This document shows, piece after piece, positions 2,692 to 26,658 of a stretch of 64,000 nucleotides of DNA. Position 1 is the first letter of the stretch. Each line of letters opens with the position of its first letter. Origin of the DNA: Alphaproteobacteria bacterium (GTDB taxonomy: Bacteria > Pseudomonadota > Alphaproteobacteria > Rs-D84); contig JAFZZS010000007.1 of the NCBI GenBank assembly GCA_017615655.1, positions 59,463 through 123,462 on the forward strand. The letters run 5' to 3'. Made by a program: the position numbers and the translations under genes. Below the pieces are notes generated by a model. The model worked only from the letters and a program-made list of their open reading frames with translations. It was not told the origin of the DNA and ran no database searches.

Positions 2692-2717
2692 ACACCTGCA
2701 TGTGCAGGTGTTTTTTA
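2692..2717. terminator. bidirectional rho-independent terminator
   Basis: Hairpin acacctgca-tg-tgcaggtgt flanked by an A-run and a T-run, between convergent priA and the 2715..3131 ORF. Confidence 0.8.
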
Positions 2718-3131
2718 TTTGCCACGTGATTGTTGAACTGGGAAATTTTGTCTTCTTATAACCTTTCGAATTGCAACAAAAATTTTGGCCAATCTGCCTT
2801 CTTTTTGTTCTTTGTTCGCCAAATCCGCAATAACTTTTTCTTCTTTTCCATCACTAAAGTCTGTATTAGTAGCAAAAGATTTAGCACGTTTAACAGATTC
2901 TAACCAATTCAACGTGCTGTATGTAATATTCGTAGAATTTGGATCATACCGTTGCATTTCTAATTCGTTTAAAATATTACGGCATTTATCAATTGCGGCA
3001 TCCATTGTGCGTTCAAATTTTTCTGTATTTATTACTTTACCTGTTTCATCCATGGCACCTGTATTTTGTAATTCTTGTTTTAAAGTGCTTGTAATTTCAT
3101 CAAGTTGTTTTTGTGTATCTAGGTAACTCAT
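2715..3131 (-). CDS. hypothetical protein (downstream of virB11-like gene)
   Basis: 138 aa ORF, charged and coiled-coil-like; no recognisable motif. Confidence 0.4.
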   Translation of the reverse strand: MSYLDTQKQLDEITSTLKQELQNTGAMDETGKVINTEKFERTMDAAIDKCRNILNELEMQRYDPNSTNITYSTLNWLESVKRAKSFATNTDFSDGKEEKVIADLANKEQKEGRLAKIFVAIRKVIRRQNFPVQQSRGK

Positions 3132-3156: not shown

Positions 3157-4152
3157 TTATACAACCTCGGTTACGGCGCGCAAAGAACCATCGCGTGAGA
3201 GTTGCACAACACGTATCTTTTGCTTCATTTCTGTAATTAATTCTGTACGATCATATGCAGGTTGCGTGTGTAAAATCCGGTCGGCAAAAGCGGCATACGC
3301 GGCATCAGCACTTTCGGCATGAATTGTCGTATAAAAATGTTCGTGCCCTGTGCCCAGCATTTCCCACATTACCGCGGCATTGTCTGTTGAAATTTCACCA
3401 CCAATTATCACATCTGGGGTCATACGAACCACCAAATCAAGCAATCTTGCATAATTAAAATTATTTGTTTGCTCGGTACGCGAAAGTACAAAATGAACAC
3501 GATTTTTTTGTGGAACAATAACTTCACGTGCATCTTCAACCGTAATAACGCGACAATTCTGATCAATAAGCGTCAACATGTGGTTTAAAAATGTCGTTTT
3601 GCCGGTTGCGGTTGCGCCACTTATTAAAATTGGACTGCCGTCATTTATGGCTGACATTAATCTATCATAAGGGTCATCTGGGCGTGTTGTTTCGCGTGGC
3701 TTCACCTTTAAAAGTTGTTCGCCATGTTTAAGATGATAATTTTCAAATGATGTTTCTGAAACCCCGCCACCACGAATATTAAGTGCCACACCACCTGTTA
3801 CATCACGTTCATCATATTGAACATTTGGACCCGCAATTGCGCTAAAACGATGATTACCGGGTAATGTCGCGTACACAACCGGCATCCCATGAATCGGATC
3901 AAATGGGCGTTCGTATATATTAGCAATCGTATGTATCAGGTCCACAAGGTACTGTTTTGATAATACCGGGGCGTCATATGCAACCCATGGAACGCGTGCA
4001 CCATGCAGGCGCATCCATACCTCACCCTCGTGATTTATCGCAATTTCTTCAACAAAAGACGGGCGATAAAAGTCCGATAAGGGTTTTAATAAAGAATCTA
4101 GTACAACATTTGACATCAAAATCATTTTATCATAAATCCTGACTTGAATCAA
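3157..4152 (-). CDS. virB11: type IV secretion ATPase, VirB11/TrbB family
   Basis: N-terminal LLKPLSDFYRPSFVEEIAINHEGEVW matches VirB11 LLKPILEWLDDPKTEEIAINRPGEAFV. Walker A LISGATATGKTT; RVITVEDAREV; RMTPDVIIGGEIS; TIHAESA (VirB11 TIHGANP). Length 331 aa. Confidence 0.85.
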   Translation of the reverse strand: MIQVRIYDKMILMSNVVLDSLLKPLSDFYRPSFVEEIAINHEGEVWMRLHGARVPWVAYDAPVLSKQYLVDLIHTIANIYERPFDPIHGMPVVYATLPGNHRFSAIAGPNVQYDERDVTGGVALNIRGGGVSETSFENYHLKHGEQLLKVKPRETTRPDDPYDRLMSAINDGSPILISGATATGKTTFLNHMLTLIDQNCRVITVEDAREVIVPQKNRVHFVLSRTEQTNNFNYARLLDLVVRMTPDVIIGGEISTDNAAVMWEMLGTGHEHFYTTIHAESADAAYAAFADRILHTQPAYDRTELITEMKQKIRVVQLSRDGSLRAVTEVV

Positions 4153-4192
4153 AAGAGTTTATTTGATAAAATACAAAAAAAGAGAGAAAAAT

Positions 4193-4750
4193 ATGAAAAA
4201 ATCATTTTTACTTATTTTGTGCTCGTTGCTTGCGTTTGCAGGCTGTGCAAGCGATACACCGTACAATGTTGACGATTTCGCAAATGGCGGCGAAGATGCC
4301 CCGATATATAATGAACGTACAAGTACATTCATGCAGGCAGATAATCCATTTGCAAGTGTAGATTCCTATCGACCAAAAACTGAAATAGAAAAAGAAGAAA
4401 TGAATAAACGGTGGAATACGTCTCGTATGGAGACCCGTTGGCAAGAATACAAGGGTGTTATGGTTCGTGTGCAAATACTACTTGGCAACACCGATTTACG
4501 TGAAATGCGTTTACGTTTAATGCAAAATGCTGATGGTATGGATGTTGATGGTGATATTCGTACCGTGTTAAGCAAAGTGGCTGATTATGAAATGAAACGT
4601 GTTTGTGGGCGTAATGCCGATAGCATAGTTTTAGTTTATGATAAACCATCATTTGAATCTACACGTCCTACGCCGTTTTTTGACTATCGCATAGAGGCTG
4701 ATGGTGTCACAATGCGCGAATACGGCTTTAGATGCGTTTTTAACAATTAA
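4193..4750 (+). CDS. lipoprotein of unknown function
   Basis: MKKSFLLILCSLLAFAGCASD signal peptide with lipobox LAFAGC. ORF track starts earlier at 4163; the signal peptide begins at the internal Met. Confidence 0.55.
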   Translation: MKKSFLLILCSLLAFAGCASDTPYNVDDFANGGEDAPIYNERTSTFMQADNPFASVDSYRPKTEIEKEEMNKRWNTSRMETRWQEYKGVMVRVQILLGNTDLREMRLRLMQNADGMDVDGDIRTVLSKVADYEMKRVCGRNADSIVLVYDKPSFESTRPTPFFDYRIEADGVTMREYGFRCVFNN

Positions 4751-4772: not shown

Positions 4773-5105
4773 ATGAAGAAAATATTAAGTGTTTTCGGTG
4801 TGTGTGGTGCGCTTTTTTGCGCGGGTTGCGATGCAGGCGATATGACCGCACAGCAGGGTGATACAGTAATTATCAATTTTGCGGGTTACCTGGATGGTGT
4901 TCAATTTCCAGGAGGAACCGCAGAATCGTATCCATTAGTATTAGGGTCGGGTGCATTTGTTCCAGGCTTTGAGGATCAGTTGGTTGGTGCCAAGAAGGGC
5001 GAAGAACGTGATGTAAATATTACATTCCCAACGCAGTATGTCCCAGATTTGGCCGGAAAAGATGTTGTGTTCAAAGTAAAAGTACTGGACATCAAAAAGA
5101 AATAA
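4773..5105 (+). CDS. FKBP-type peptidyl-prolyl cis-trans isomerase, lipoprotein
   Basis: Signal/lipobox MKKILSVFGVCGALFCAGC. FKBP core INFAGYLDGVQF...GSGAFVPGFEDQLVGAKKGEERDVNITFP. Good RBS aaaaggaaaaaaaATG. The ORF-track start at 4701 is probably too far upstream. Confidence 0.75.
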   Translation: MKKILSVFGVCGALFCAGCDAGDMTAQQGDTVIINFAGYLDGVQFPGGTAESYPLVLGSGAFVPGFEDQLVGAKKGEERDVNITFPTQYVPDLAGKDVVFKVKVLDIKKK

Positions 5106-5117: not shown

Positions 5118-5150
5118 AAAAAGATGCCGGATTTTTTCCGGCATCTTTTT
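5118..5150. terminator. bidirectional rho-independent terminator
   Basis: aaaagatgccgga-ttttt-tccggcatctttt between convergent genes. Confidence 0.8.
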
Positions 5151-5943
5151 ATTTTCGTTTTTCACGCATTTCATTAACCAATTGTTCAAATTCGGCAAAT
5201 GATTTTATTCGTGTCAATTTATATGTTGATATTTTTACATTAAGATCGTTCAAAATTACACTTTGCCAATAGTTCATAGACAATGCCGCGCGAATCGTAG
5301 CCCATAATGGATTGATAGATTCATTTTCAATGCGTGAATCTGGCGCTTTGCCTTGGGCAATAAAAGATTGTTCTGCGGCATTACCAATATTATAAATTCG
5401 CATGCCAATATCTATTTTGATATCAAAAAACCTTTCCAATTCCTTTAATTTACTGGTCAATTTGGTAGAATCAAATCCAAATTCTTGGGTCTCACGTATA
5501 AGGTCACTAATTTTTTCTGTTGATTGAACTGGGCGCCCACAAGCAGTTTTAATGTTACCAAGAATATAACTAAAAATCATACGGCGGTTCCATTGTTTTC
5601 CTTTGCCGGATGTTTTTTTAACAACAGGTGTAGGTACACTGGGCACTTCGGGTATTTTTGTCGAATCTGATGTTTTATTTAGTTTGTTTTTTGAATTTAA
5701 TATAAATATAAAAACAACAGTGTAAAGTTCTGTTACCGTCATATCAGATATATTTCGTGATATATTCAATTTGAATTGGTTCCTGATTCGTTCTTTAATA
5801 AGGGCGATGTCTTCGGGAAATGTAATTATCTCGGATATTCTTGAAAGCGGATTAATAGTTTCGGCAAAGGTAGAATTTAATAAAATATTATTTACTTGCC
5901 TTTTAATAACAGCTTTAAGTTCTTGTGGTGTATTCGGTGCCAT
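5149..5943 (-). CDS. hypothetical protein
   Basis: 264 aa ORF, no recognisable motif; same strand as lpxI and the 136-aa ORF. Confidence 0.4.
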   Translation of the reverse strand: MAPNTPQELKAVIKRQVNNILLNSTFAETINPLSRISEIITFPEDIALIKERIRNQFKLNISRNISDMTVTELYTVVFIFILNSKNKLNKTSDSTKIPEVPSVPTPVVKKTSGKGKQWNRRMIFSYILGNIKTACGRPVQSTEKISDLIRETQEFGFDSTKLTSKLKELERFFDIKIDIGMRIYNIGNAAEQSFIAQGKAPDSRIENESINPLWATIRAALSMNYWQSVILNDLNVKISTYKLTRIKSFAEFEQLVNEMREKRK

Positions 5944-5957: not shown

Positions 5958-6368
5958 TTATCTATTTTTATCACGTGCTTTGACAACAGCATTTTCCATC
6001 ATTAAATTACCAGTGTTTGTGCTGTCATATGGTGTATCGACCATACGTCCCCGTTTAGACAGTGACCATTCCGCTATGGATGCGATGTCGTCCATTGTAT
6101 AAGATGCATAAATCTTGATTTTAAATGCGTTTTCTATATGACGTAATTGTTTGGTGAGTTTTGCAATTTTCACTGCGGTTTCATCAAATTCTGCTTCGTA
6201 TAGCATACGACCGATTATCTCGTCCGGGGCAACGTACCGGTGCATAGCATGCCCAATACGGTATGTTATCATATCGTATATTTGGCGCGTTGTCCAAAAG
6301 GGGCGGGGTTTTAATTTTGGTGTAAAACTTTCGTCCGGTGAACATAAAGAGTCAGTATATTCGTCCAT
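5958..6368 (-). CDS. hypothetical protein
   Basis: 136 aa ORF, no motif recognised. Confidence 0.4.
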   Translation of the reverse strand: MDEYTDSLCSPDESFTPKLKPRPFWTTRQIYDMITYRIGHAMHRYVAPDEIIGRMLYEAEFDETAVKIAKLTKQLRHIENAFKIKIYASYTMDDIASIAEWSLSKRGRMVDTPYDSTNTGNLMMENAVVKARDKNR

Positions 6369-11802: not shown

Positions 11803-12213
11803 ATGCAATTGGAAATTACTGAAATGCAGAACGGGACAATCTGTTTGGCAAATGCTATTGCGCGTATTGTTTATGCCGAAACTCTTGCGGTTTCTTTGCG
11901 GGTGATAGAAGCATTAACTTCCATGATTGCGAATGCAACACTAAATAACCGGCATGAAATAATAAAGATGTTATCAGATAAAAATATTTTCGAATCATTG
12001 AATACCGAATCATCGCGACATAAATATTTATCGGTGGATACATCAATACGTGGTTTCCAGGTTTGTGTACGTGTTGCAATTAGGATGTTGCATGGTAATT
12101 TAGATGATAGGTGTAATCACGCAACAAAGTTTCATCGGTCAGAATTATTACCCAGTTGGGCGATTGCATGTGGTTATGTCGCAGATATAGATGGAATATT
12201 GTTCTATGCATAA
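11803..12213 (+). CDS. hypothetical protein, possibly SleB-like cell-wall hydrolase (phage endolysin?)
   Basis: 136 aa; weak resemblance of TICLANAIARIVYAE to the Hydrolase_2 CLAxAIYxEA motif. First gene of the phage-like cluster. Confidence 0.3.
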   Translation: MQLEITEMQNGTICLANAIARIVYAETLAVSLRVIEALTSMIANATLNNRHEIIKMLSDKNIFESLNTESSRHKYLSVDTSIRGFQVCVRVAIRMLHGNLDDRCNHATKFHRSELLPSWAIACGYVADIDGILFYA

Positions 12214-12231
12214 ATTCAAAGGAATCGTCAT

Positions 12232-12420
12232 ATGGAACGTTTTATCCATGGTGGTTTTTTTGCGAATCGCAAAATACAGATAATGACATGTGTCGGAATA
12301 GTATCCGCGTTGTGTGCATATCTTGTTGGCGATTCGGATATATATGCCACCGCCCAGGCAATTATTGCGGTCTGTGGTGTTTATTGGTTGCATAAATCTA
12401 AAACTAGTAAAGGAAAATAA
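12232..12420 (+). CDS. small single-TM membrane protein (holin-like?)
   Basis: 62 aa; hydrophobic core VGIVSALCAYLVG...AIIAVCGVYWL; basic C-terminus. Confidence 0.3.
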   Translation: MERFIHGGFFANRKIQIMTCVGIVSALCAYLVGDSDIYATAQAIIAVCGVYWLHKSKTSKGK

Positions 12421-12421
12421 A

Positions 12422-13078
12422 ATGGAAAATATACCAGAAAAATTTTTAAACAAAGACGGCACACTAAACAGTGATGCATTGATGAAATCATATTCTGAAC
12501 TTGAAAAAAAGATTGGAACGATGATATCTGTTCCTGATGACGAATCAGATGAAGCAACGCAAAACCGCTTTCGTCGGGCGATTGGTGTTCCTGAAAGTGC
12601 TGATGATTATCCACATAATGAATTATTTGATAATGAAAATGTACGTCAAAAATTTCATGAAATTGGTTTAACAAGTTCACAAGTTGAAAAAATTTATGAT
12701 ATCGCCGAAGAATTTTTATCACCGATGTTTTCAAGAATTTTTTCTATTGAACAAGAATCAAATGCGATGCTAGAACTGAAAAAATTTTTTGGCTCAGATG
12801 AAAAAATGCGTGATGCATTTATTGCAATAAAATCTTTTGGCGAGAAATTTTTACCTGTAGACGCATTTAATGAATTATGCGCCAGCCCCCAGGGAATACA
12901 AGGCATTTACAAGATGATGCAATCAATGGAACCAAGTGTTGAAACTGCTACATCAACTATAGAAAATTTAACTGATTCTGATTTACGTCGTATGATGCGT
13001 GATCCAAAATATTGGCGCGATCACGATGAAGAATATGTGCGTAAAATTGAAAACGGATTTAAAAAATTATATTCCTAG
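12422..13078 (+). CDS. acidic phage scaffold-like protein (position-equivalent to T7 gp9)
   Basis: 219 aa, very acidic and helical; lies immediately upstream of the capsid gene; RBS aaaggaaaataaaATG. The ORF-track start at 12314 is probably upstream read-through. Confidence 0.4.
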   Translation: MENIPEKFLNKDGTLNSDALMKSYSELEKKIGTMISVPDDESDEATQNRFRRAIGVPESADDYPHNELFDNENVRQKFHEIGLTSSQVEKIYDIAEEFLSPMFSRIFSIEQESNAMLELKKFFGSDEKMRDAFIAIKSFGEKFLPVDAFNELCASPQGIQGIYKMMQSMEPSVETATSTIENLTDSDLRRMMRDPKYWRDHDEEYVRKIENGFKKLYS

Positions 13079-13196
13079 TGAATATTTTTGATAAAAAAAT
13101 TACTTTTCTTCTTTACTAATTTTTTTCTTTCGTATAAAATGAAATCAAGAACAAAAGAATTTGTTCTATCCAAAAAAAATACGAAAGGAGAGAAGA

Positions 13197-13490
13197 ATGG
13201 CATTCACATTCTTGAAAACCGCTGCAAAGAAGCCTGCAGCAAAGAAACCGGCAGCAAAGAAACCAGCTGCAAAGAAACCAGCTGCAAAAAAAGTTGCAGC
13301 AAAGAAACCAGCAGCAAAGAAACCAGCTGTAAAAAAAGTTGCAGCAAAAAAACCAGCAGCAAAGAAACCAGCTGTAAAAAAAGTTGCAGCAAAGAAACCA
13401 GCTGCAAAGAAAGTTGTTGCAAAAAAAGTTGCAGCAAAGAAACCAGCTGCTAAAAAAGCTTGCGCAAAAAAATGTGCAAAGAAAAAATAA
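13197..13490 (+). CDS. histone H1-like basic repeat protein (AAKKP pentapeptide repeats)
   Basis: MAFTFLKTAAKKPAAKKPAAKK...; 15-nt tandem repeats; SD aaaggagagaagaATG 7 nt upstream. The other two same-region ORFs (13088..13453, 13116..13505) are repeat-induced artefacts. Confidence 0.6.
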   Translation: MAFTFLKTAAKKPAAKKPAAKKPAAKKPAAKKVAAKKPAAKKPAVKKVAAKKPAAKKPAVKKVAAKKPAAKKVVAKKVAAKKPAAKKACAKKCAKKK

Positions 13491-13510
13491 TAATGTTATA
13501 GACATTATGA

Positions 13511-13586
13511 AATGCCCGTAAAATCGGGCATTTTTTTATATTAAAAATTTTCAGTCAGATATAAAAAGTCTGACTGAATCTTTTTA
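13511..13586 (+). terminator. two consecutive rho-independent terminators
   Basis: atgcccg-taaaat-cgggcat plus T7 (13511..13538); tcagtcaga-tataaaaa-gtctgactga plus T5 (13551..13586). Confidence 0.75.
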
Positions 13587-13715
13587 TGGATAATCCATTT
13601 TTTATGGACCCAATTCGATTTGTTTTCGGCGTCACATCGACATAACCGCTAATAAATTATTTGGCGGGCAAAATTTGTTTGCCTTGATTTAATCATTTTA
13701 ACAAAAGGAAAAATT

Positions 13716-14531
13716 ATGTCTGTTTCCATAGATCAGGTTTTTGTAAAACAATTTGAAGCAGATGTCCATTTGGCTTATCAGCAAATGGGAACAAAACTGC
13801 GTTCTACGATTCGCAGCAAATCTGGGGTCGTAGGCACTTCTACAACATTTCAAAAAATTGGCAAAGGAACTGCCAGCACGAAATCACGTCATGGTATTGT
13901 GCCAGTCATGAATCTTAATCATGCACCCGTAGAATGCACATTGCAGGATTATTACGCAGGTGATTGGGTTGACGCACTGGATGAATTGAAAATCAATATT
14001 GATGAACGTCGTGTTGTTGCATCTGCAGGCGCGTATGCATTGGGTCGCAAAACAGATGAATTAATCGTTGCGGCAATGAACAATGCAACCACATATGTTG
14101 GTGATTATTCCACAGGTCTTACCAAAACGTTAATTTTAACAGCACTGGAAAAATTAAATGAAAAAGATGTTCCAGATGATGGACGCAGATTCGGTGTTAT
14201 CGGTGTAAAGCAATGGAATGAATTGCTTGGTATAACCGAATTTTCATCCGCAGATTATGTTGGAAACGATTTGCCATTCATTAACGGATGCGAAACAAGA
14301 AAGTGGCTTGGTATTACATGGATTATGTATAACGATTTACCAATCTCTTCGGCGCATCGCGATTGCTTTATTTATCATGCTTCAAGTGTCGGGCATGCGT
14401 GTGGCCAAGAGGTTAAGACCGATATTACATGGCATGGTGAACGTGCAGCACACTTTATCAGCAATAGTATGTCGCAAGGGGCAGTATTAATAGACAGTGA
14501 TGGTATTGTGCGTGTTAAATGTGGCGAATAA
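13716..14531 (+). CDS. T7-like major capsid protein (gp10 homologue, shortened)
   Basis: VFVKQFEADVHLAYQQMGTKLRSTIRSKSGVVGTSTTFQKIGK parallels T7 gp10 LFLKVFGGEVLTAFARTSVTTSRHMVRSISSGKSAQFPVLGR. 271 aa. Confidence 0.7.
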   Translation: MSVSIDQVFVKQFEADVHLAYQQMGTKLRSTIRSKSGVVGTSTTFQKIGKGTASTKSRHGIVPVMNLNHAPVECTLQDYYAGDWVDALDELKINIDERRVVASAGAYALGRKTDELIVAAMNNATTYVGDYSTGLTKTLILTALEKLNEKDVPDDGRRFGVIGVKQWNELLGITEFSSADYVGNDLPFINGCETRKWLGITWIMYNDLPISSAHRDCFIYHASSVGHACGQEVKTDITWHGERAAHFISNSMSQGAVLIDSDGIVRVKCGE

Positions 14532-14548
14532 AACAAAGGGAGTAGGCA

Positions 14549-14779
14549 ATGGCTTTTCAGAATAAAAATTTGTCGGTAATTGCGTATGCAAATGGTTTTA
14601 CGTTGTGGCATTACGCTGCGAATGAAACAATGGCAACCATCACAGCAAGTGGTTATTTTAATATGGTCAAAACATTGATGAATACAGGTGATGTTGTGAT
14701 TATCAATGCATCTGATAAAACATCAATTAAAAAAATTGCTGTGGGTGATAGTGCTGTTACAACTGCCGCATTAGATTAA
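14549..14779 (+). CDS. small phage-cluster protein of unknown function
   Basis: 76 aa ORF between the capsid and gp11-like genes. Confidence 0.35.
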   Translation: MAFQNKNLSVIAYANGFTLWHYAANETMATITASGYFNMVKTLMNTGDVVIINASDKTSIKKIAVGDSAVTTAALD

Positions 14780-14788
14780 TTTTTTTGA

Positions 14789-14825
14789 ATCGGGCCGGAT
14801 TTCCGGCCCAAATTTAATTTTTATA
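14789..14825 (+). terminator. rho-independent terminator after the capsid gene block (position analogous to T7 Tphi)
   Basis: cgggccgga-tt-tccggccc then aaatttaattttt. Confidence 0.65.
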
Positions 14826-14839
14826 AATAAGGTAGAAAA

Positions 14840-15358
14840 ATGCTAACGAAAATAGATTTATGTTCAATGGCGTTGTTAAAACTTGGTGAAAATCCAATTC
14901 AATCATTGTCAGATGATACCGCAACCGCAAAGCTTGGGCGTACGTTGGTCGATTTTGTTATAGATAGTTTGCTTACGATGCATCCGTGGAAATTTGCATG
15001 CAGAACATATAACCTGAATGCGAATATAGACGGTAGTTTCAATATACCCACAGATGTATTGCGTATTGTTAAAACAAATGGTCGCGTAATGGAAGATAAA
15101 ATAATTTCAGATTCTAAAGAAATTAGTATTACCGCGATTGTGCGTATATCTCCGGACAAATTTCCAAACTATTTTTCATCGCTTGTTGTAACAAAACTAG
15201 CCACAGAATTTTGTATGCCTATTACAGGCGATCAAACCGTATTTAGAACACTGGTCGCACTTTATGAAACAGAGTTACAAAATGCAAAATTCATAGACAG
15301 CACAACGTCGATAAATCCACAAATAGAAAATTTTTCACTTGTAGATGTTCGTTTCTAG
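14840..15358 (+). CDS. tail tubular protein A (T7 gp11 homologue)
   Basis: CSMALLKLGENPIQSLSDDTATAKLGRTLVDFVIDSLLTMHPWKF aligns with T7 gp11 [42 protein letters not shown]. Confidence 0.65.
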   Translation: MLTKIDLCSMALLKLGENPIQSLSDDTATAKLGRTLVDFVIDSLLTMHPWKFACRTYNLNANIDGSFNIPTDVLRIVKTNGRVMEDKIISDSKEISITAIVRISPDKFPNYFSSLVVTKLATEFCMPITGDQTVFRTLVALYETELQNAKFIDSTTSINPQIENFSLVDVRF

Positions 15359-15373
15359 TGTACGGGGGAAATC

Positions 15374-17080
15374 ATGGGAAATTTTATAAAAACACAAACT
15401 TCATTTGCTAATGGCGAGATTTCGCCCAATTTTTTTGCGAATGATAATATGCATGGTCTTGCATATATGGAAAATATGGATGTTATCCCGGGTGGGGGAC
15501 TTACCAGGCGTGCCGGACTAAAATCATTAGCTACATTACCATCTAGTGCCAGACTGATTTCTTTTTCAGCGTCTGAAAATGATAATTATGTCCTAGCGAT
15601 TATGAATGGAATTATTCGCGTGTTTTCTAGTGGCGAATTTGTGCAAGATATTATAGCGCCATGGACATCAAATGATTTGATGAAATTGCAATATGCGCAA
15701 CGTTTTGGAACGATAATATTTGTTCATCCAGATTATAAACCGCGAATACTTTCTTGTGAATCCAGCTCATTTCAATTGCTAGAATTTACATTTACATATA
15801 CCGATGATTTAAACAACATAAATATGCCGTTTATGCGATTCGAAGACTCTGAAGGTATAACATTAACACTTACGCATACAAATGACGGAGTGCAACTTAC
15901 AACGAATCAAGATTTTTGGACTCAAGATAATGTTTATGGGCATTTATCATTGCTTGGTAAAACATTTCTGGTACAAAGTTATATAGATTCGCGGAATATA
16001 ATCGCAGTATGTAATGGAACATTTACATACCCAAATACGCCAGTGTCTGATTGGAAAGAGGCGGTATTTAGTTATCGTCGGGGTTGGCCAATAAGCATAA
16101 CATTTCATCAAAATAGATTGGTGTTTGGCGGATCCAAATCATGGCCTGGTGGTGTTTGGATGTCTTGTGTCGGACAGCATAGAAATTTTAATACGGGTAC
16201 AGGACTTGATGACGAGGCGATATTTTTCACCTTACTATCAGGACGCAGGCAACATATTTGCACATTGGTAAGCAGTGATAATTTACAGATTCTTACATCT
16301 GAAGGCGAATGGGCGGTGTCCAATAAACCGCTGACACCCGAATCAGTAAATATAAAAATGCATACATCTGTGGGCAGTCCCGCGGATATATATTTGCCCC
16401 CACAAGAAATGGAAGGCAAAACGATATTCGTTTCTAATAACAAACAGGATATTCGTGAACTGACGTTGGATGAATTGGGCGAAAATTATAATGCGAATAA
16501 TTTATGCGAGTTATCTGCTCATTTGATACAAAAACCAATTGATATTGCGTACAACAAAAAACAAAAGCGTTTATTTGTCGTTATGCAAGACGGTAACATG
16601 GCCGTGTTAAATCGTGATGTATCACTGGATATATCTGCGTGGGGCCGTTATACCACAAGTGGTAAATTCTGTTCGGTCGTTGTTTGTGAAGGTAATACAT
16701 TTGTTGTTACGAAACGTGATACAACTTTTTATCTTGAGCAATTTTCTGATTCCGAAATGATAGATGCAACGAATCAAAAATATACGGTACGTGCCGTAGG
16801 GTTACCACTGATGTCGGCAGGGCATAATGCACACAAAATTCAAATAAGGAAGATTATTGCAAGATTGTATAATTCCAAGACGTTGTTTATAAATGGTCTG
16901 CGCGCAAATTTGCCCAATAATGCATATTCCATAGATTCTGGGGGGTATTCAGGCGACATTTCTATGAATACCATTGGAACATGTTTACCAATTAGTGACG
17001 CACCATGGGAATTATCTACGACAGATGCAATGCCGTTAACAATATTGTCTATAACAATATATGGCAGATATCAAATTTAA
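15374..17080 (+). CDS. tail tubular protein B (T7 gp12 homologue)
   Basis: N-terminus FANGEISPNFFANDNMHGLAYMENMDVIPGGGLTRRAGL...IRVFSSG parallels T7 gp12 LKGGISQQPDILRYPDQGSRQVNGWSSETEGLQKRPPL...GIRVFDLSG. 568 aa. Confidence 0.65.
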   Translation: MGNFIKTQTSFANGEISPNFFANDNMHGLAYMENMDVIPGGGLTRRAGLKSLATLPSSARLISFSASENDNYVLAIMNGIIRVFSSGEFVQDIIAPWTSNDLMKLQYAQRFGTIIFVHPDYKPRILSCESSSFQLLEFTFTYTDDLNNINMPFMRFEDSEGITLTLTHTNDGVQLTTNQDFWTQDNVYGHLSLLGKTFLVQSYIDSRNIIAVCNGTFTYPNTPVSDWKEAVFSYRRGWPISITFHQNRLVFGGSKSWPGGVWMSCVGQHRNFNTGTGLDDEAIFFTLLSGRRQHICTLVSSDNLQILTSEGEWAVSNKPLTPESVNIKMHTSVGSPADIYLPPQEMEGKTIFVSNNKQDIRELTLDELGENYNANNLCELSAHLIQKPIDIAYNKKQKRLFVVMQDGNMAVLNRDVSLDISAWGRYTTSGKFCSVVVCEGNTFVVTKRDTTFYLEQFSDSEMIDATNQKYTVRAVGLPLMSAGHNAHKIQIRKIIARLYNSKTLFINGLRANLPNNAYSIDSGGYSGDISMNTIGTCLPISDAPWELSTTDAMPLTILSITIYGRYQI

Positions 17081-17097
17081 AATCAAAGGAGTAACAA

Positions 17098-17445
17098 ATG
17101 GGACAAATGATTTCAGATGTATCAGATATATTGAATTATCAAAGTAATAAAAAAAATGCTAATGCAACAAAAAAACAAATTTTGGCCGATATTGTAGCTG
17201 ATGAAAATCAGAAACAAAATCTTGTTAAAAAAGTGCTGGCAACGCAACGTGCAAAATACGGGGCATCAGGTATGAATAACAAGGGGCTTACCGAGGATGC
17301 AGTGTTAACAAGGTTAAAAAAAGAAACCGAACAACCATATGATTCGAAAAAAGAGGTCAATATTAGAAAGTTGAAAAATGCCAAGGTAAAAAAGAAAAAT
17401 TTATTGCTAACTGCATTGGCACATTTGGACAAATTGGTCGGATGA
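17098..17445 (+). CDS. putative small terminase subunit (position of T7 gp18)
   Basis: 115 aa, basic, directly upstream of terL; assignment by position only. Confidence 0.3.
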   Translation: MGQMISDVSDILNYQSNKKNANATKKQILADIVADENQKQNLVKKVLATQRAKYGASGMNNKGLTEDAVLTRLKKETEQPYDSKKEVNIRKLKNAKVKKKNLLLTALAHLDKLVG

Positions 17446-17449
17446 TAAT

Positions 17450-18043
17450 ATGAGTGTTTATAGCCAATTTTTAGATTCTTGGAACGAGGTAATCGGGTTT
17501 ACCGCTCCGGAACACCATTATCATATGACAGATTTTCTGGGAAATGTTATTAACGGAAATTCACGTCATGGATTACTAATGGCGTTTAGGCATTCTGGTA
17601 AATCAACGATTGTTGGAATTTTTGCGGCTTGTACTTTGTTTTTACGTCCGGAAACGCGAATATTAATATTGTCAGCAGAAACCCACCTTGCTACACGAAT
17701 GGTTATGCATATTCGTAATATATTGGAAAATCATCCATGGTGTACAGATTTGGTGCCAAAAAATAAACGCGAATGGGCGGAAAATAAAATAACGGTTAAT
17801 CGAGCCATAGGAATTCGTGAACCATCGGTTGTTTGTCAGGGAATATACGGCAATATAACAGGAATGCGTGCAGATTTAATAATATGCGATGATGTAGAGG
17901 TTCCAAACACCTGTAACACCGCGAGAAAGCGTACAGGACTGCGCGACAAATTGCGCGAACTTGATTTTATACTTTCACCAAACGGTGCGATGATTTACAT
18001 TGGAACCCCGCATACATTGGACACAATTTACAGAACAGACTAA
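17450..18043 (+). CDS. terminase large subunit, N-terminal ATPase fragment (gene interrupted)
   Basis: Walker A AFRHSGKST; Walker B ADLIICDDVE; motif III IYIGTPHT. The ORF stops after 197 aa, where the ATPase domain is incomplete. Confidence 0.8.
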   Translation: MSVYSQFLDSWNEVIGFTAPEHHYHMTDFLGNVINGNSRHGLLMAFRHSGKSTIVGIFAACTLFLRPETRILILSAETHLATRMVMHIRNILENHPWCTDLVPKNKREWAENKITVNRAIGIREPSVVCQGIYGNITGMRADLIICDDVEVPNTCNTARKRTGLRDKLRELDFILSPNGAMIYIGTPHTLDTIYRTD

Positions 18044-18702
18044 TTTTCTATAGAATTTGTCTGTTGGGGCAAGGAACTAATCAATGTGTGCAATTTCTGT
18101 AACAATTCGGATCCTTCTTCACCAAACATGGGTAAATATGTTTCATATTCTGGCAAATCTACCTGAAGTTGCGCACGCACACGATCATTTACAGGTTGCT
18201 TGATAAGGTCTTTGGCTTTTATCCATATATTATAAGCATTCCACATACGTGCAATTTGATCAAACTTGTCGAACATGTCAGTATCATTTGTCAGTATAGT
18301 TCGTATAGATGAAACCCAATCCGAACCAAAGCGACGAACAACGGGCGTAGATATGAAATTCTCTAGACCACGTTGATTCGGGGTAAAGGCGTTAATAGCA
18401 ACCTTTAATTCTTTTAGTTCCGGTTCTGTTATTTGAGTGTTTATTGGGCGTTCCGCAAATATACCACCATATGGTAATAATTCGCGAGATATAGAATCCA
18501 TAGGGGTCTTGCCACTGCGCAGGTTATTTATATGTTCAGATAATAATTTACCTGTCGGTAAATCTTTTAGTTCCTGGATTACGTCATCGGTGGCTTCGTC
18601 AATAAAAATTTTGTTTAACACGGACCAACCGCCTGCGATAACATGTGCTTGACGATAAAGGTTTAACAACTTCTGTGCGACAATGCTTGCTTTGGCTTTC
18701 AT
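18040..18702 (-). CDS. hypothetical protein (part of the insertion within terL)
   Basis: 220 aa; no motif recognised; stop codon overlaps the stop of the terL N-fragment convergently. Confidence 0.4.
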   Translation of the reverse strand: MKAKASIVAQKLLNLYRQAHVIAGGWSVLNKIFIDEATDDVIQELKDLPTGKLLSEHINNLRSGKTPMDSISRELLPYGGIFAERPINTQITEPELKELKVAINAFTPNQRGLENFISTPVVRRFGSDWVSSIRTILTNDTDMFDKFDQIARMWNAYNIWIKAKDLIKQPVNDRVRAQLQVDLPEYETYLPMFGEEGSELLQKLHTLISSLPQQTNSIEN

Positions 18703-18729
18703 CTCGTTTAATCCCCCATATTTAAAGAT

Positions 18730-19740
18730 TTATTCGGTCAAAACCATAATAACTTTGTGCATAGTTTTGGCGGTAATTTTCTCGTCAGGTGATATCATTT
18801 GACCATAAACTTTGCCCTTGGAGTCTTTACGAATCACTGCGATATTTGCACGAACAGTTTCTTCGGGTTTAAGTGCTTTGAAATCGGCGTCTATAAAGAC
18901 CGCCAAATCACCAACCGTGGCATTTATCTTCGCGTCTGCAAAAACATATGATTTTTCCGGAATAAAACCACCAAGACGCTTTGAATTTGGAATAACCGCA
19001 TAAACACCCTTGCGACCTTCAAGATTCGCAGGAGCATTTATCATTGTATTATCCGATTTTTTTAATGCGATATACTTGCCATCTGGATGACCAAATACGG
19101 GTACCAATTTACGACGTGCGGTTTCATATAATTTTGCACTGTAAAGGTGCCCTTGGGAATCACCGAAATCTGCGGACGAATCACCTGGAACCAAAATAGA
19201 TTTTACACGTTCTTTGACTTTGTTCATTTGTTTGATAAGTTCACCAGATTTGTAAAGTTGAGCAATTTTATCAAACATCGTCTCAACAGAACAAGCAAAC
19301 GAATTCGCAAGTGGTTCTATTTCATTTTGATATACTTCGCGCTGACCAACTTCAATTTTATGATAAACTGATAAGGTCATACCAGCATCTTTCGCCGCCT
19401 GAGCAATAGTCTTTCCGGATTGTTGGCGAATTTTACGTAACCCGCTACCAAATAATTTAAGACCACTGTCTTCGTTATCATTCATACGGCGTGTGATTTC
19501 GTCCTGCCATTTAGATGCAACTTCGTCTGTATCTTTGATAAAAATATCTGACAGCTTACAGCCCAAAATATTGCAGATATTCAACAACTGTTTTTGATTA
19601 AGGCGTCGGACACCTTTTTCAATCTTGGACACTGCAGACAAAGACAATCCTGAACGACGTGCCAGTTCAGTCATCTTCATACCTGCTGCAAGACGAATAT
19701 TGCGAATATTGTTTGGAAAAATGATTTCTTCCTGGGCCAT
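18730..19740 (-). CDS. CI-like transcriptional repressor with two XRE-family HTH domains and a degenerate S24-like C-terminal domain
   Basis: HTH1 NIRLAAGMKMTELARRSGLSLSAVSKIEKG; HTH2 LRKIRQQSGKTIAQAAKDAGMTLSVYHKIEVG; C-terminal beta-rich domain lacks a clear GDSM catalytic Ser-Lys dyad. Confidence 0.7.
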   Translation of the reverse strand: MAQEEIIFPNNIRNIRLAAGMKMTELARRSGLSLSAVSKIEKGVRRLNQKQLLNICNILGCKLSDIFIKDTDEVASKWQDEITRRMNDNEDSGLKLFGSGLRKIRQQSGKTIAQAAKDAGMTLSVYHKIEVGQREVYQNEIEPLANSFACSVETMFDKIAQLYKSGELIKQMNKVKERVKSILVPGDSSADFGDSQGHLYSAKLYETARRKLVPVFGHPDGKYIALKKSDNTMINAPANLEGRKGVYAVIPNSKRLGGFIPEKSYVFADAKINATVGDLAVFIDADFKALKPEETVRANIAVIRKDSKGKVYGQMISPDEKITAKTMHKVIMVLTE

Positions 19741-19762
19741 GTAAACCTCCTTGTATAAAATC

Positions 19763-24313: not shown

Positions 24314-25132
24314 CTAGAAAGCATAGGGCTTTGCGGCAAAATTATCCATCGCTTGTTGAATGTTAGTTGCGCTGTCATCTGCCTGACGACCACAATCGAC
24401 CAATTCTAATTCACCATAGTATGCTGTCATTAGCGGATCATATGCATTATCTGAACTTACCCATTTATCAGACCCCGAATTTGGTACGCCATATTTTTCC
24501 AAAACATTCTGCCACCATGCCATAATTTTTTTATTTTTTTGATTTTCAAATTTTTCGTCCATACCTTCTTCTTCGTTGGCATCATTCTTATAGACAATTT
24601 TCCACACGACATTATCTGTTGCGTTACTTGTAAAATAAACATCAATGGTTTCACCCGTTATATCACGCACAAGGTGCAATTCAGACGCATAAAGCACACC
24701 ACGATTTCGTGCCAAAGATTTTATACATTTATCTAATTTGGCAGGAACGTAAATCTTTTGTTGGCGACATTCGTAATCAAGATTATACTTCCAGTCTTTG
24801 TGTATTGAATAAACGACGCTATCCTTTGGCCTATTGATATACAATCCATTTTCGCGTGCGACCATTTGCGCCTCGTCAAAGGTCATTCCCAACATTATTC
24901 CGGCAATATCAAAATTCGCGGCTGCCACAGGCGTTGCATCAGCATTTATTTGTACAGTTGTCATTCGACACTCTTCATTTCCGTCATCGTCGGTTTCAAT
25001 TGAGTATTCATCGAAATTTTCACCACTTTCATCCTGTGTGTATTCATCATAATCAAATTCGTCCGCAATGCAAACTGGACACATAACAAGAATCGAGCAT
25101 AACAGAGCAAAAAGACCAAATATACGTTTCAT
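24314..25132 (-). CDS. secreted acidic protein of unknown function
   Basis: Signal peptide MKRIFGLFALLCSILVMCPVCIA; Asp/Glu/Tyr-rich N-terminal region; last gene of a four-gene envelope operon. Confidence 0.45.
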   Translation of the reverse strand: MKRIFGLFALLCSILVMCPVCIADEFDYDEYTQDESGENFDEYSIETDDDGNEECRMTTVQINADATPVAAANFDIAGIMLGMTFDEAQMVARENGLYINRPKDSVVYSIHKDWKYNLDYECRQQKIYVPAKLDKCIKSLARNRGVLYASELHLVRDITGETIDVYFTSNATDNVVWKIVYKNDANEEEGMDEKFENQKNKKIMAWWQNVLEKYGVPNSGSDKWVSSDNAYDPLMTAYYGELELVDCGRQADDSATNIQQAMDNFAAKPYAF

Positions 25133-25134
25133 TA

Positions 25135-25785
25135 CTATTTCTCGTCTATAATAACATCCTGGACATAAAACATAAACACAACCGCGGGATCAATTCCACG
25201 ACGTAACGCATTTTGAACGGCATCGATAGGTTGTTTTATCTCACCTGTATAGTCAACGTTCAAATACATCGTACCCCGTTTCACAGTTGGGATTTCTGTC
25301 ATGTCATTCGGTTTATACCATGTTTTTGTCTCATAATCAACCTGCAAATAATCACTTGCCTCTGGGGTTAAAATTTCATCAAAAACAGTAACAGTTCGGC
25401 GAACACCTTTTGATGCCTCTTCACGAATATCTTGTGCGGTTATTTGCCGCCATTTATCAAAAACGTTCGGTGACGACATATATGACAGTGGCGCATTTAT
25501 ACCATTACGTATGGTGCGTTGTTCAATATTTTCTGATCCTGGTTCAATGTACAAATATTCATATACAAATTTTTGTGCCAACCAATCACGCAGTTTTCTA
25601 TACTGAACATCCGCCAATGTCTTGGGATTCCCAATTTGGTCAGTAGACAGTAACCCCAGCCTAAAGAAATATGGTTGGATTTCTATTTTATCACTGGTTT
25701 CATATATCGCACTGGCCAAATACAGACTTGCAAAAACGCAAATCATTGTCGCAAAACCGAAAAGATAACCAAATAATTTTCGCAT
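25135..25785 (-). CDS. bitopic membrane protein of unknown function
   Basis: N-terminal TM FGYLFGFATMICVFASLYLASAI followed by a soluble domain; start overlaps the stop of the upstream gene (translational coupling). Confidence 0.45.
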   Translation of the reverse strand: MRKLFGYLFGFATMICVFASLYLASAIYETSDKIEIQPYFFRLGLLSTDQIGNPKTLADVQYRKLRDWLAQKFVYEYLYIEPGSENIEQRTIRNGINAPLSYMSSPNVFDKWRQITAQDIREEASKGVRRTVTVFDEILTPEASDYLQVDYETKTWYKPNDMTEIPTVKRGTMYLNVDYTGEIKQPIDAVQNALRRGIDPAVVFMFYVQDVIIDEK

Positions 25786-26483
25786 TATTGCTCCCTGTAT
25801 GCATTAAAGTCCGCCACATAGTACCCAAGTGTTTGCGGATATAGTTTTACATCGCGTTCAATGCGGATATAGGCAATTATTTGAAAATCGCCATGTATGC
25901 TTGAACGAACGCGTGCACGCGCAATCCAGTTACCACCATCTTTTGTAATATTGCCATTTGGCGTCACAATGATTCTTGATGGATTTACATACCAACGTTC
26001 ACCCAACGCCGCAAAAGACTGATAAAGTGGTACAACATCGTCAGCAAAAGAACGATATAGATTTTCTTCGGCGAGACAGAATATATTACATTCCATATTT
26101 CTACGCAGTGTCGTCTCTACGCGATTTGCACATACTGTTTCACGATTGCAGGTGTTCCAACGTGCCTCGTTCATCTCGGGATTATCCGATAGCGTAAACC
26201 ATCTTTCTGTAAAAACTCCGACCAGAGCGCGCTGCATCGAGGTATAATATGGAACAGGTTGTCTAATCTTTTGTTGCCCCAGCAATTCCCATTTGCCATT
26301 TGCCCCATCAACGTAAATTATAAAAGGCTCTATTGTCCGATTTTGTATAATCCATGGTATCGCAACACAACAAAAAAGTATAAGAAGAAAAGAAACAAAT
26401 ATCCAAATCCCCGCAGTTCGGGAAACGGCAATTCGTTTTCCCGCCGGAAATGCCGACGTTTCAAAATCTTCTGGATAATCCAT
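25785..26483 (-). CDS. bitopic membrane protein, VirB8-like topology and motifs (tentative)
   Basis: Cytoplasmic N-terminus, TM IWIFVSFLLILFCCVAIPWII, then PFIIYVDGANGKW (VirB8 PYVVEVD..G), ...FTERWFTL (VirB8 FVERVRSV), C-terminal GYYVADFNAY (VirB8 GVYITDFTW). Confidence 0.4.
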   Translation of the reverse strand: MDYPEDFETSAFPAGKRIAVSRTAGIWIFVSFLLILFCCVAIPWIIQNRTIEPFIIYVDGANGKWELLGQQKIRQPVPYYTSMQRALVGVFTERWFTLSDNPEMNEARWNTCNRETVCANRVETTLRRNMECNIFCLAEENLYRSFADDVVPLYQSFAALGERWYVNPSRIIVTPNGNITKDGGNWIARARVRSSIHGDFQIIAYIRIERDVKLYPQTLGYYVADFNAYREQ

Positions 26484-26511: not shown

Positions 26512-26658
26512 CTAAGCGCGATAGACCATTATGCATGCACATGGGCTTAATTTCAGTTCGTTTGTATCATATCCCACACCAACAGGTTCACGATCATAAA
26601 TCTGACCACAGCCCGCTAATGCCAATCCTACAAACACTCCCAATATAATTTTTTTCAT
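26512..26658 (-). CDS. small lipoprotein (48 aa), possible VirB7-like lipoprotein
   Basis: Own translation: MKKIILGVFVGLALAGCGQIYDREPVGVGYDTNELKLSPCACIMVYRA; lipobox LAGC; not in the ORF track (below size cutoff); first gene of the operon. Confidence 0.4.
   Translation of the reverse strand: MKKIILGVFVGLALAGCGQIYDREPVGVGYDTNELKLSPCACIMVYRA

What the first reader, a model, noticed from the sequence alone, without database searches (positions are those of the whole stretch)
3157..4152. Orphan VirB11-family secretion ATPase with atypical catalytic motifs, next to lipoprotein genes rather than a virB operon
Clear VirB11 homology by own alignment to A. tumefaciens VirB11. Walker A reads GATATGKTT instead of GPTGSGKTT. 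The conserved GE(M/I)RD/G box reads GGEISTD. The His-box region reads TTIHAES. No virB8/9/10/D4 genes flank it. Instead there are a 138-aa unknown protein downstream, and a lipoprotein plus a lipoprotein FKBP isomerase upstream on the other strand. Either the T4SS genes are scattered, as in Rickettsiales rvh systems, or this is a diverged ATPase recruited to another machine.
Basis: partly seen in the sequence, partly recalled or inferred. Interest (0 to 1): 0.55.

Follow-up and report, generated by a model that had tools for sequence, protein, structure and literature searches.

The report
Lone VirB11 of a dispersed T4SS
This is an intact, very strongly conserved VirB11-type secretion motor from a little-known branch of type IV secretion systems, and in this gut alphaproteobacterium its partner genes lie elsewhere: three of them sit 21 kb away in the same window.

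Summary
The ORF is real, but the coding sequence is 3157-4116 (-), 319 aa. The extra 36 bases up to the TTG at 4152 are the gene's conserved promoter.

It is a VirB11-family ATPase:
- Best profile is TIGR02788, full length but below its cut-off.
- The AlphaFold model has pLDDT 94.
- The best solved-structure match is Brucella VirB11, TM 0.8.

The motifs are less unusual than the finding claims. Walker A is a canonical GxxxxGKT. The Asp box, Walker B Asp/Glu, His box and two N-domain arginines are all present. The only real deviation is GEISxxNA in place of GE(I/L)RGxEA. That motif marks a whole VirB11 subfamily.

Members of this subfamily occupy the virB11 position in complete conjugative virB operons on Microvirga, Sphingosinicella and Erythrobacter plasmids. 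They also sit in chromosomal islets (virB8, small lipoprotein, virB8, virB9, virB10, virB11) in related gut Alphaproteobacteria.

In this lineage the gene stands alone beside priA. A VirB7-position lipoprotein and two VirB8 genes lie behind bamA at 25.1-26.7 kb. No VirB4, B9, B10 or D4 was found in the sequence available.

Selection is strongly purifying. The gene is not decaying, not a TadA, and not an rvh-type VirB11.

The parts
3157..4116 (-). VirB11-subfamily traffic ATPase, 319 aa (real CDS). Walker A G167-T174, Asp box E194/D195, Walker B D235-E241 followed by S243 and N246, His box H258-H266, N-domain R90 and R115.
   Evidence: AF2 pLDDT 94.1. Foldseek best match 2gza, TM 0.80-0.83. pN 0.045-0.10 against saturated pS.
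4124..4152 (-). Conserved sigma-70-type promoter with extended -10 (TTGATT, 17 nt, TG-a-TAAAAT). It ends 7 nt before the ATG, so the mRNA is probably leaderless or has a very short leader.
   Evidence: Scan. Alignment with L001 and L003-L005 shows conserved hexamers and frame-breaking indels. The leaderless reading is an inference.
2715..3131 (-). orf138, a coiled-coil-like ORF 25 nt downstream with a strong Shine-Dalgarno sequence (AAGGAG). It is probably co-transcribed. It fills a variable slot that holds different small ORFs in relatives.
   Evidence: sequence. No homologue in any fetched locus. No Pfam, NCBIfam or PADLOC family.
4193..4750 (+). Divergently transcribed lipoprotein of unknown family. 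It is a conserved neighbour only in the close (87-88% identical) relatives.
   Evidence: Absent beside the ATPase in L006, L007, L092 and L095.
4773..5105 (+). Lipoprotein FKBP-type peptidyl-prolyl isomerase, conserved neighbour in close relatives.
   Evidence: PF00254, E 3e-16. Synteny.
26512..26658 (-). 48-aa lipoprotein with motif ELKLSPCAC. It is the VirB7-position lipoprotein of this T4SS family.
   Evidence: Homologous to the small ORF between the two virB8 genes of the islets (E about 1e-10). Also homologous to the ORF just upstream of virB8 on the three plasmids (E 2e-15 to 9e-8).
25785..26483 (-). VirB8-like protein 1, 232 aa, bitopic. Identical to MBO4480658.1 (locus tag J5742_03490).
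   Evidence: PF04335 at 25.7 bits against a cut-off of 23.2. hhalign probability 97%, E 1e-10, nearly full length. Identity to MBO4480658.1.
25135..25785 (-). VirB8-like protein 2, 216 aa.
   Evidence: hhalign against a VirB8 alignment: probability 95.6%, E 1e-8. Orthologues are hit by the VirB8 profile and by the islet VirB8 proteins.
24314..25132 (-). Secreted 272-aa protein with a highly conserved C-terminal 200 aa. It occupies the position that virB9 holds in the islets and plasmids, but no similarity to VirB9 was detected.
   Evidence: Alignment. hhalign against VirB8, B9, B10 and B5 all negative. No Pfam, NCBIfam or PADLOC hit.

Best explanation
The gene encodes a working VirB11-type traffic ATPase.

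Fold and mechanism (inferred): it has the two-domain fold of Brucella VirB11 and presumably forms a hexamer at the inner membrane.

Family (shown): it belongs to a separate VirB11 subfamily, marked by GE(I/V)SxxNA after Walker B. This subfamily serves a divergent family of P-type type IV secretion systems.

History (inferred from relatives): in an ancestor of this gut alphaproteobacterial group, that system became a chromosomal islet: virB8, VirB7-like lipoprotein, virB8, virB9, virB10, virB11. In the window's lineage the islet was broken up. virB11 now stands alone under its own conserved promoter beside priA. The lipoprotein, two virB8 genes and an unknown secreted protein sit directly behind bamA.

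Role (inferred): the ATPase most likely still powers whatever remains of this envelope-spanning apparatus, together with the VirB8 proteins. It is unknown whether the lineage keeps a full secretion channel (VirB4, B6, B9, B10, D4) elsewhere in the genome or only a reduced derivative.
For: Family and fold:
- TIGR02788 is the best profile, aligned over the full length.
- PDB sequence hits are HP0525 and Brucella VirB11.
- The AF2 model has pLDDT 94.1; Foldseek best match is 2gza, TM 0.80-0.83, E 4e-25.

Subfamily:
- 72 representatives at E below 1e-30 share GExS..NA.
- They form one clade, sister to the canonical VirB11s, in a neighbour-joining tree.

Operon context elsewhere:
- The three closest plasmid hits (37-41% identity, 191-235 bits, against about 115-127 bits for the annotated virB11 genes listed) lie between virB10 and the coupling-protein gene. 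Those operons run from virB2 to virB10 and include MobA.
- They carry the same motif.
- Chromosomal islets in relatives 53-56% identical keep the order virB8, lipoprotein, virB8, CagX/virB9, TrbI/virB10, ATPase. The islet in L095 is bounded by core genes; the start of the L092 islet was not seen.

Partners in the window:
- VirB7-position lipoprotein and two VirB8 genes.
- The bamA-adjacent cassette is conserved down to 37-39% identity.

Selection:
- pN is 0.045-0.10 while pS is 0.75-0.86, i.e. saturated.
- At 87% identity, it is the most conserved of about 20 shared genes compared with L005.

From memory, not tested here: in Agrobacterium the substrate passes from VirB11 to VirB6 and VirB8 (Cascales and Christie 2004). 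A B11-B8 partnership is therefore mechanistically plausible.
Against: - No VirB4, VirB9, VirB10 or coupling protein was detected in the 64-kb window or in any flanking locus of this lineage.
- VirB10 homologues of the islet type form small clusters (at most 51 members). The largest clusters of this lineage's own VirB8-like gene have up to 172 members, and of its ATPase up to 543. This hints that the abundant lineage lacks such a VirB10.
- The ATPase and the VirB8 cassette are 21 kb apart. No co-regulation or co-occurrence across genomes was shown.
- The third cassette gene is not recognisably VirB9.
- The score against TIGR02788 is below the curated cut-off (150 against 250).
- The tree is neighbour-joining without support values.
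Confidence: 0.6

Rival explanations
1. A lone ATPase taken over by a different machine. The lineage has lost the secretion channel (VirB4, B9, B10, D4). The VirB11 hexamer now powers something else, such as an outer-membrane or lipoprotein process, or the neighbouring phage-like particle genes.
For: - No channel genes were found in any sequence of this lineage.
- Conservation is unusually high for a T4SS gene, at 87-94% identity across species.
- It has its own promoter and a core-gene neighbourhood with a conserved lipoprotein and FKBP pair.
- In several relatives it lies within about 10 kb of parts of a conserved phage-like cluster.
Against: - The lipoprotein and FKBP neighbours are absent in the 52-56% identical relatives.
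- VirB7-like and VirB8 genes of the same T4SS family are kept and conserved in the same genome.
- No known non-T4SS system uses a VirB11-type ATPase (from memory).
- No PADLOC defence family matches.
Confidence: 0.25
2. A Tad/Flp pilus ATPase (TadA/CpaF), as NCBI's pipeline names some members of this group.
For: Source annotations read 'Flp pilus assembly complex ATPase component TadA'. The TadA profile TIGR03819 hits at 71 bits.
Against: - The VirB11 profile scores twice as high and aligns over the full length.
- The best fold match is Brucella VirB11 at TM 0.8, against 0.46-0.48 for CpaF.
- In the tree it groups with VirB11s, not CpaF.
- Relatives sit beside virB10, virB9 and virB8, never beside tad genes.
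Confidence: 0.03
3. A decaying paralogue left over from a lost or duplicated virB operon.
For: It stands alone, scores below the VirB11 equivalog cut-off, and has lost the Arg of GE(I/L)R.
Against: - The ORF is intact at the same length in well over 100 sequence clusters.
- pN/pS is about 0.06-0.12 with synonymous sites saturated.
- All catalytic residues are invariant.
- The promoter is conserved.
- The Arg-to-Ser change is shared with VirB11 genes of complete conjugative operons.
Confidence: 0.02

Closest known systems
VirB11 of P-type T4SSs (Brucella suis VirB11, PDB 2gza; Helicobacter pylori HP0525, PDB 1g6o; Agrobacterium VirB11)
   Same: Same length and two-domain architecture. Walker A, Asp box, Walker B and His box are all present. 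The N-domain arginines align with HP0525 R113 and R133. The model superposes on 2gza at TM 0.80-0.83 with the same arrangement of the two domains.
   Different: Only 22-32% identical. Below the TIGR02788 cut-off. It has GEISTDNA in place of GE(I/L)RGxEA. It is not in a virB operon in this genome.
Unnamed VirB11-position ATPases of virB-type operons on Microvirga sp. VF16 pMVF16-3, Sphingosinicella sp. BN140058 p1 and an Erythrobacter aureus plasmid (annotated 'ATPase, T2SS/T4P/T4SS family')
   Same: Same subfamily (37-41% identity) and same GEIS(N/T)(S/T)NA motif. The same VirB7-position lipoprotein family and related VirB8 proteins occur in those operons.
   Different: Those genes lie between virB10 and the coupling-protein gene, in plasmid operons with a relaxase. 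The window's gene is chromosomal, stands alone, and is far more conserved within its lineage.
Chromosomal islets of related gut Alphaproteobacteria (L092, L095 = GCA_002437805.1, L007, L096)
   Same: The ATPase is 53-56% identical. The islets hold the same small lipoprotein and two VirB8 genes.
   Different: There virB9 and virB10 are present and virB11 directly follows virB10. In some, virB10 is fused to giant repeat proteins of up to 1,695 aa. In the window's lineage these are missing from the locus and were not found.
Rickettsiales vir homolog (rvh) T4SS
   Same: Chromosomal, scattered in islets, with duplicated VirB8. The order B8, B7, B8, B9, B10, B11 in the relatives' islets matches the Rickettsia typhi locus described in PMC4676284.
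   Different: rvh VirB11 proteins (Wolbachia, Rickettsiaceae) carry the canonical GELRGAEA and fall in the canonical clade. The islet proteins hit the plasmid family better than they hit rvh proteins. No virD4 follows virB11. Duplication of VirB4 and VirB9 and multiple VirB6 copies were not seen.

Membership tests
VirB11 (NCBIfam TIGR02788 equivalog) | Whole-protein score at or above the curated cut-off (249.95 bits) | tested here: not met
   150.2 bits, though it is the best family and aligns over the full length. Other members of the GExS clade score 117-181 bits, also below the cut-off.
VirB11 (structural family) | Two-domain N-terminal plus RecA-like C-terminal fold of about 320-350 aa, most similar to solved VirB11 structures | tested here: met
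   AF2 pLDDT 94.1, pTM 0.90. The top three Foldseek PDB hits are chains of 2gza (TM 0.80-0.83), followed by HP0525.
VirB11 (structural family) | Walker A, Asp box, Walker B and His box with their catalytic Lys, Glu, Asp and His residues | tested here: met
   G167xxxxGKT174, E194/D195, D235 and E241, H258 and H266, all invariant in the clade. The Arg after the Walker B Glu is replaced by Ser.
VirB11 (functional definition) | Encoded in a virB/trb-type operon next to virB10 or the coupling-protein gene | tested here: not met
   Not met in this window, where the neighbours are priA and a lipoprotein gene. Met for subfamily members on three plasmids and in four chromosomal islets.
VirB11 (functional definition) | Hexameric ATPase that docks on the T4SS inner-membrane complex | not testable with these tools
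   Needs biochemistry or in situ imaging.
Rickettsiales vir homolog (rvh) T4SS | Duplicated VirB8 (hallmarks as listed in PMC11077975) | tested here: met
   Two VirB8-like genes in tandem in the window, and two in the relatives' islets.
Rickettsiales vir homolog (rvh) T4SS | Duplicated VirB4 and VirB9, multiple VirB6 copies, no VirB5 | tested here: inconclusive
   Profiles for VirB4 and VirB9 hit nothing in the window or in any locus of this lineage. The rest of the genome could not be searched.
Rickettsiales vir homolog (rvh) T4SS | Components cluster by sequence with rvh proteins of Rickettsiales | tested here: not met
   Wolbachia and Rickettsiaceae VirB11 fall in the canonical GELRGAEA clade. 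Islet VirB8, B9 and B10 hit the plasmid family best.
TadA/CpaF (TIGR03819) | Score at or above the cut-off (373 bits) and a tad-locus context | tested here: not met
   71 bits. Fold TM 0.46-0.48 to CpaF. No tad genes nearby.
TrbB (TIGR02782) | Score at or above the cut-off (304.55 bits) | tested here: not met
   82.4 bits, C-terminal half only.

The most novel reading that the evidence does not exclude
The abundant mammalian-gut alphaproteobacterial lineage has lost the secretion channel (VirB4, B6, B9, B10, D4). It keeps only a minimal derivative as near-essential core genes: a VirB11 motor, two VirB8 proteins, a VirB7-like lipoprotein and a new conserved secreted protein placed behind bamA. 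In this reading a T4SS has been turned into a new envelope machine that is neither a conjugation system nor an effector system.
Probability: 0.2. Interest if true: 0.75.

Novelty: new variant of a known kind. Interest (0 to 1): 0.45.

Why it matters
Three points follow.

1. **An unrecognised VirB11 branch.** The work defines a VirB11 subfamily with GExSxxNA in place of GE(I/L)RGxEA. Curated models miss it, and annotation pipelines mislabel it as TadA or as a generic ATPase. It serves a coherent but undescribed family of P-type T4SSs, found on alphaproteobacterial plasmids and in gut Alphaproteobacteria.

2. **A core-gene secretion system in uncultured gut bacteria.** A widespread group of mammalian-gut Alphaproteobacteria carries this system on the chromosome. 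In this lineage the system is dismantled, yet the motor is the most conserved gene in its neighbourhood. That degree of conservation suggests an important role that is probably not conjugation.

3. **A comparison for the Rickettsiales rvh system.** The parallel in layout (duplicated VirB8, scattered islets) gives an independent case for asking why such architectures evolve.

Tried and rejected
- **Shallow AlphaFold run.** A model built on 15 sequences, all at least 85% identical, gave pLDDT 42 and was unusable. The 35-sequence alignment A1 was used instead.
- **The search for related loci with A1.** The narrower alignment A2 worked, but its patterns pulled in mostly canonical VirB11 and CpaF. 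Only six GEIS-type genomes came back.
- **Exact look-up of the window's 319-aa protein.** Not on record.
- **Downstream orf138 and the inserted ORFs 5149-5943 and 5958-6368.** No family in Pfam, NCBIfam or PADLOC, and no homologue in any fetched locus. They were dropped as partners.
- **The lipoprotein and FKBP pair as functional partners.** Conserved only in the 87-88% identical clade and absent in the 52-56% relatives. Rejected as a lineage-wide link.
- **The window's 1,472-aa protein as a giant VirB10 fusion.** No hit from the VirB10 profile or from the 1,476-1,695-aa fusion proteins.
- **The third cassette gene as VirB9.** hhalign was negative.
- **Defence-system membership.** Only marginal P-loop matches in PADLOC.
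- **Literature searches.** Searches for RF32 with secretion systems, and for orphan VirB11, found nothing relevant.
- **Matching NCBI accessions to the window's MAG.** No VirB10-like protein carried an accession near MBO4480658. Most entries have no accession, so this is uninformative.

Full report
**1. The observation**

The window has about 39% G+C. It carries an ORF on the minus strand at 3157-4152.

The neighbours are also as described:
- a 138-aa ORF downstream;
- on the other strand, a lipoprotein (lipobox LAFAGC);
- a lipoprotein FKBP isomerase (PF00254, E 3e-16).

The start coordinate is wrong. The 36 bases upstream of ATG 4116 are a promoter: TTGATT, 17 nt, then TG-a-TAAAAT. The promoter is conserved in four relatives, but indels there break the reading frame. 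Most homologues are annotated at 319 aa. The CDS is therefore 3157-4116.

The -10 hexamer ends 7 nt before the ATG and there is no Shine-Dalgarno sequence. I infer that the mRNA is leaderless or nearly so. orf138 follows after 25 nt with a strong AAGGAG and is probably co-transcribed. It has no homologue in any relative, and the slot holds different small ORFs elsewhere.

**2. What the protein is**

| Test | Result |
|---|---|
| Pfam | T2SSE only, 73 bits |
| NCBIfam, best family | VirB11 TIGR02788, 150 bits, residues 34-330 on 7-306 of 308, below the 249.95-bit cut-off |
| NCBIfam, other families | TrbB 82 bits, TadA 71 bits, FlaI 73 bits |
| PDB by sequence | HP0525 and Brucella VirB11 align over nearly the full length; FlaI scores as high over the C-terminal ATPase region only |
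| AlphaFold, 35 diverse relatives | pLDDT 94.1, pTM 0.90 |
| Foldseek against PDB | Brucella suis VirB11 (2gza), TM 0.80-0.83, E 4e-25; then HP0525, CpaF, FlaI |

The protein is a VirB11-type ATPase by sequence and by fold. It shares the relative arrangement of the two domains seen in the Brucella structure.

**3. The 'atypical' motifs**

- Walker A, GATATGKT, satisfies GxxxxGK[ST].
- The Asp box Glu/Asp (E194/D195) is present.
- The Walker B Asp and catalytic Glu (D235, E241) are present.
- Both His-box histidines (H258, H266) are present.
- Two N-domain arginines (R90, R115) align with HP0525 R113 and R133.

All of these are invariant across the clade.

The one real departure lies just after the catalytic Glu. 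Canonical proteins read GE(I/L)RGxEA; this one reads GEISTDNA. Arg becomes Ser, and the Glu three residues later becomes Asn.

Among the representatives returned by an exhaustive search of 1.84 billion cluster representatives, this double change is shared by a large set of sequences. Seventy-two representatives match at E below 1e-30. In a neighbour-joining tree they form one clade, sister to the canonical VirB11s. The canonical clade includes the Wolbachia and Rickettsiaceae rvh proteins. The tree has no support values.

That Arg and Glu change together suggests a paired interaction replaced by a Ser/Asn pair. This is an inference and was not tested.

**4. Where the subfamily lives**

*Plasmids.* A tblastn search against 72,556 plasmids gave three hits that stand apart: 37-41% identity and 191-235 bits, against about 115-127 bits for the annotated virB11 genes listed. 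They are Microvirga pMVF16-3, Sphingosinicella p1 and an Erythrobacter aureus plasmid.

In each, the ATPase lies between virB10 and the coupling-protein gene. The operon runs MobA, (a DnaB-like helicase in two of the three), virB2, B3, B4..., B8, B9, B10. Each carries GEIS(N/T)(S/T)NA. A more distant GELSVHNA group occurs on Azospirillum and Candidatus Paracaedimonas plasmids. The motif is therefore compatible with service in complete conjugative systems.

*Genomes.* In one genome per species of GTDB, only six loci carried the GEIS type:
- three gut MAGs at 87-88% identity (L003-L005);
- L006, 52%, labelled Rickettsiales;
- L007, 53%, from a Hadza gut sample;
- L008, 58%, partial.

The close relatives keep the window's gene order: priA, ATPase, lipoprotein, FKBP, lpxI. 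L006 has the gene alone between lpxC-like and hemW-like genes, assigned by eye from the translated ORFs.

**5. The islets in relatives**

I built profiles from the virB operons that had been fetched. The VirB10 profile hit the 1,407-aa gene directly upstream of the ATPase in L007, at E 1e-47 over residues 1059-1311. Searching with that domain led to the following loci.

| Locus | Gene order | Flanks |
|---|---|---|
| L092 | virB8, 63-aa lipoprotein, virB8, CagX/virB9, two giant repeat proteins, TrbI/virB10, ATPase | yihA downstream; upstream runs off the locus |
| L095 (GCA_002437805.1) | virB8, 65-aa lipoprotein, virB8, virB9, (1,489 aa on the other strand), virB10, ATPase | core genes on both sides (a hydrolase; dxs, truB) |
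| L093 | as L092, but fragmented | HTH genes and unknowns downstream; upstream not seen |
| L096 | virB10, ATPase (the contig starts just before virB10) | yihA, yidC |

The L095 ATPase is 56% identical to the window's. Every islet protein hits the three plasmid systems better than it hits Rickettsiales proteins. No virB4, virB6 or virD4 adjoins the islets.

The order B8, B7, B8, B9, B10, B11 matches the Rickettsia typhi rvh locus as described in PMC4676284. Duplicated VirB8 is an rvh hallmark (PMC11077975). The sequences, however, are not of the rvh type.

**6. Partners inside the window**

Directly behind bamA (26727-28985) lies a four-gene cassette.

| Coordinates (-) | Product | Evidence |
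|---|---|---|
| 26512-26658 | 48-aa lipoprotein with ELKLSPCAC | Same family as the small ORF between the islet virB8 genes (E about 1e-10) and as the ORF just upstream of virB8 on all three plasmids (E 2e-15 to 9e-8). It is the VirB7-position lipoprotein of this T4SS family. |
| 25785-26483 | VirB8-like 1 | PF04335 above its cut-off; hhalign 97%, E 1e-10 |
| 25135-25785 | VirB8-like 2 | hhalign 95.6%, E 1e-8 |
| 24314-25132 | secreted protein, highly conserved | No detectable similarity to VirB9, B10, B8 or B5 |

The cassette sits behind bamA in relatives whose VirB8 is only 37-54% identical. The window's VirB8-like protein is identical to MBO4480658.1 (locus tag J5742_03490) from an Alphaproteobacteria MAG.

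So the window holds four genes whose nearest non-gut relatives all lie in the same plasmid T4SS family. They occupy two places 21 kb apart.

**7. Selection**

Among the window, L001 and L003-L005, nonsynonymous differences are 0.045-0.10 per site. Synonymous sites are saturated at 0.75-0.86. At 87% identity, the ATPase is the most conserved of about 20 genes shared with L005. For comparison, the capsid-like gene is 83% identical, lpxI 74%, priA 70% and birA 64%. This rules out decay.

**8. What could not be settled**

VirB4, VirB9, VirB10 and coupling-protein profiles hit nothing in the window or in any locus of this lineage. Only the window and 10-kb flanks around two genes could be read.

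Islet-type VirB10 proteins form small clusters of at most 51 members. The largest clusters of this lineage's own VirB8-like gene reach 172 members, and of its ATPase 543. This is a weak hint that the abundant lineage lacks such a VirB10.

I therefore commit to this reading: a functional VirB11 of a dismantled chromosomal T4SS, most likely still working with the VirB7/VirB8 cassette (confidence 0.6). Whether the apparatus is complete or reduced stays open.

**9. Verdict**

The finding is real but more ordinary than presented. It is not an ATPase with damaged catalytic motifs. It is a member of an uncurated VirB11 subfamily whose operon has been dispersed.

The notable parts are the subfamily itself, the extreme conservation of a stand-alone T4SS motor in uncultured gut Alphaproteobacteria, and the bamA-linked VirB7/VirB8 cassette.

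Noticed in passing
window 11803-23927: A podovirus (T7)-like set of structural genes sits among core genes: a cell-wall hydrolase-like gene, a scaffold-like gene, major head (phrog_3437, E 1e-72), two tail-tube-like genes and a portal. The large terminase is split in two: 17450-18043 matches profile positions 274-459, and 21292-22215 matches 468-712. The halves are separated by three opposite-strand genes, one of which is a DnaB-family helicase (19818-21377). The split terminase, DnaB and portal are arranged the same way in L083, L085 and L091, whose VirB8 is only 39-54% identical. This looks like a vertically inherited, domesticated element, perhaps resembling a gene transfer agent, and not like a recent prophage.
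   Followed up: partly
window 5149-5943 and 5958-6368 (-): Two ORFs of 264 and 136 aa, of unknown family and weakly similar to each other (E about 1e-4). They lie between the FKBP gene and lpxI. They are absent at this position in L001 and L005, so they are an insertion specific to this genome.
   Followed up: partly
window 4124-4172: Two promoter-like sites overlap in the 77-bp gap between the ATPase and the lipoprotein gene, one on each strand and reading in opposite directions. Each has an extended -10 (TG-n-TAAAAT). The whole gap is highly conserved in L001 and L003-L005.
   Followed up: partly
L007 133-6359; L092 3310-9908; proteins P0469-P0475: In related gut Alphaproteobacteria the VirB10 (TrbI) domain is fused to, or preceded by, giant secreted repeat proteins of up to 1,695 aa (Pfam Bflower and DUF3659). 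They lie between virB9 and virB11. This is an unusual elaboration of a T4SS core component.
   Followed up: partly
window 33885-38303 (+): A 1,472-aa ORF with no Pfam or NCBIfam family. A 1,414-aa gene with no Pfam hit lies at the same relative position in L091. It is not related to the giant VirB10 fusions.
   Followed up: partly
window 24314-25132 (-): The 272-aa secreted protein that ends the VirB7/VirB8 cassette has a very strongly conserved C-terminal 200 residues (for example WKYNLDYECRQ, ATDNVVW, YDPMMTAYYG). It is more conserved than the two VirB8 proteins and matches no known family.
   Followed up: partly
L087 and L089 (Microvirga and Erythrobacter plasmids): The plasmid virB operons that carry the GEIS-type ATPase are flanked by replication and recombination genes more typical of phages: a DnaB-like helicase and a Rad52/Rad22-family protein on both, and on the Erythrobacter plasmid also a CHC2 primase, topoisomerase III, SSB and ribonucleotide reductase.
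   Followed up: no
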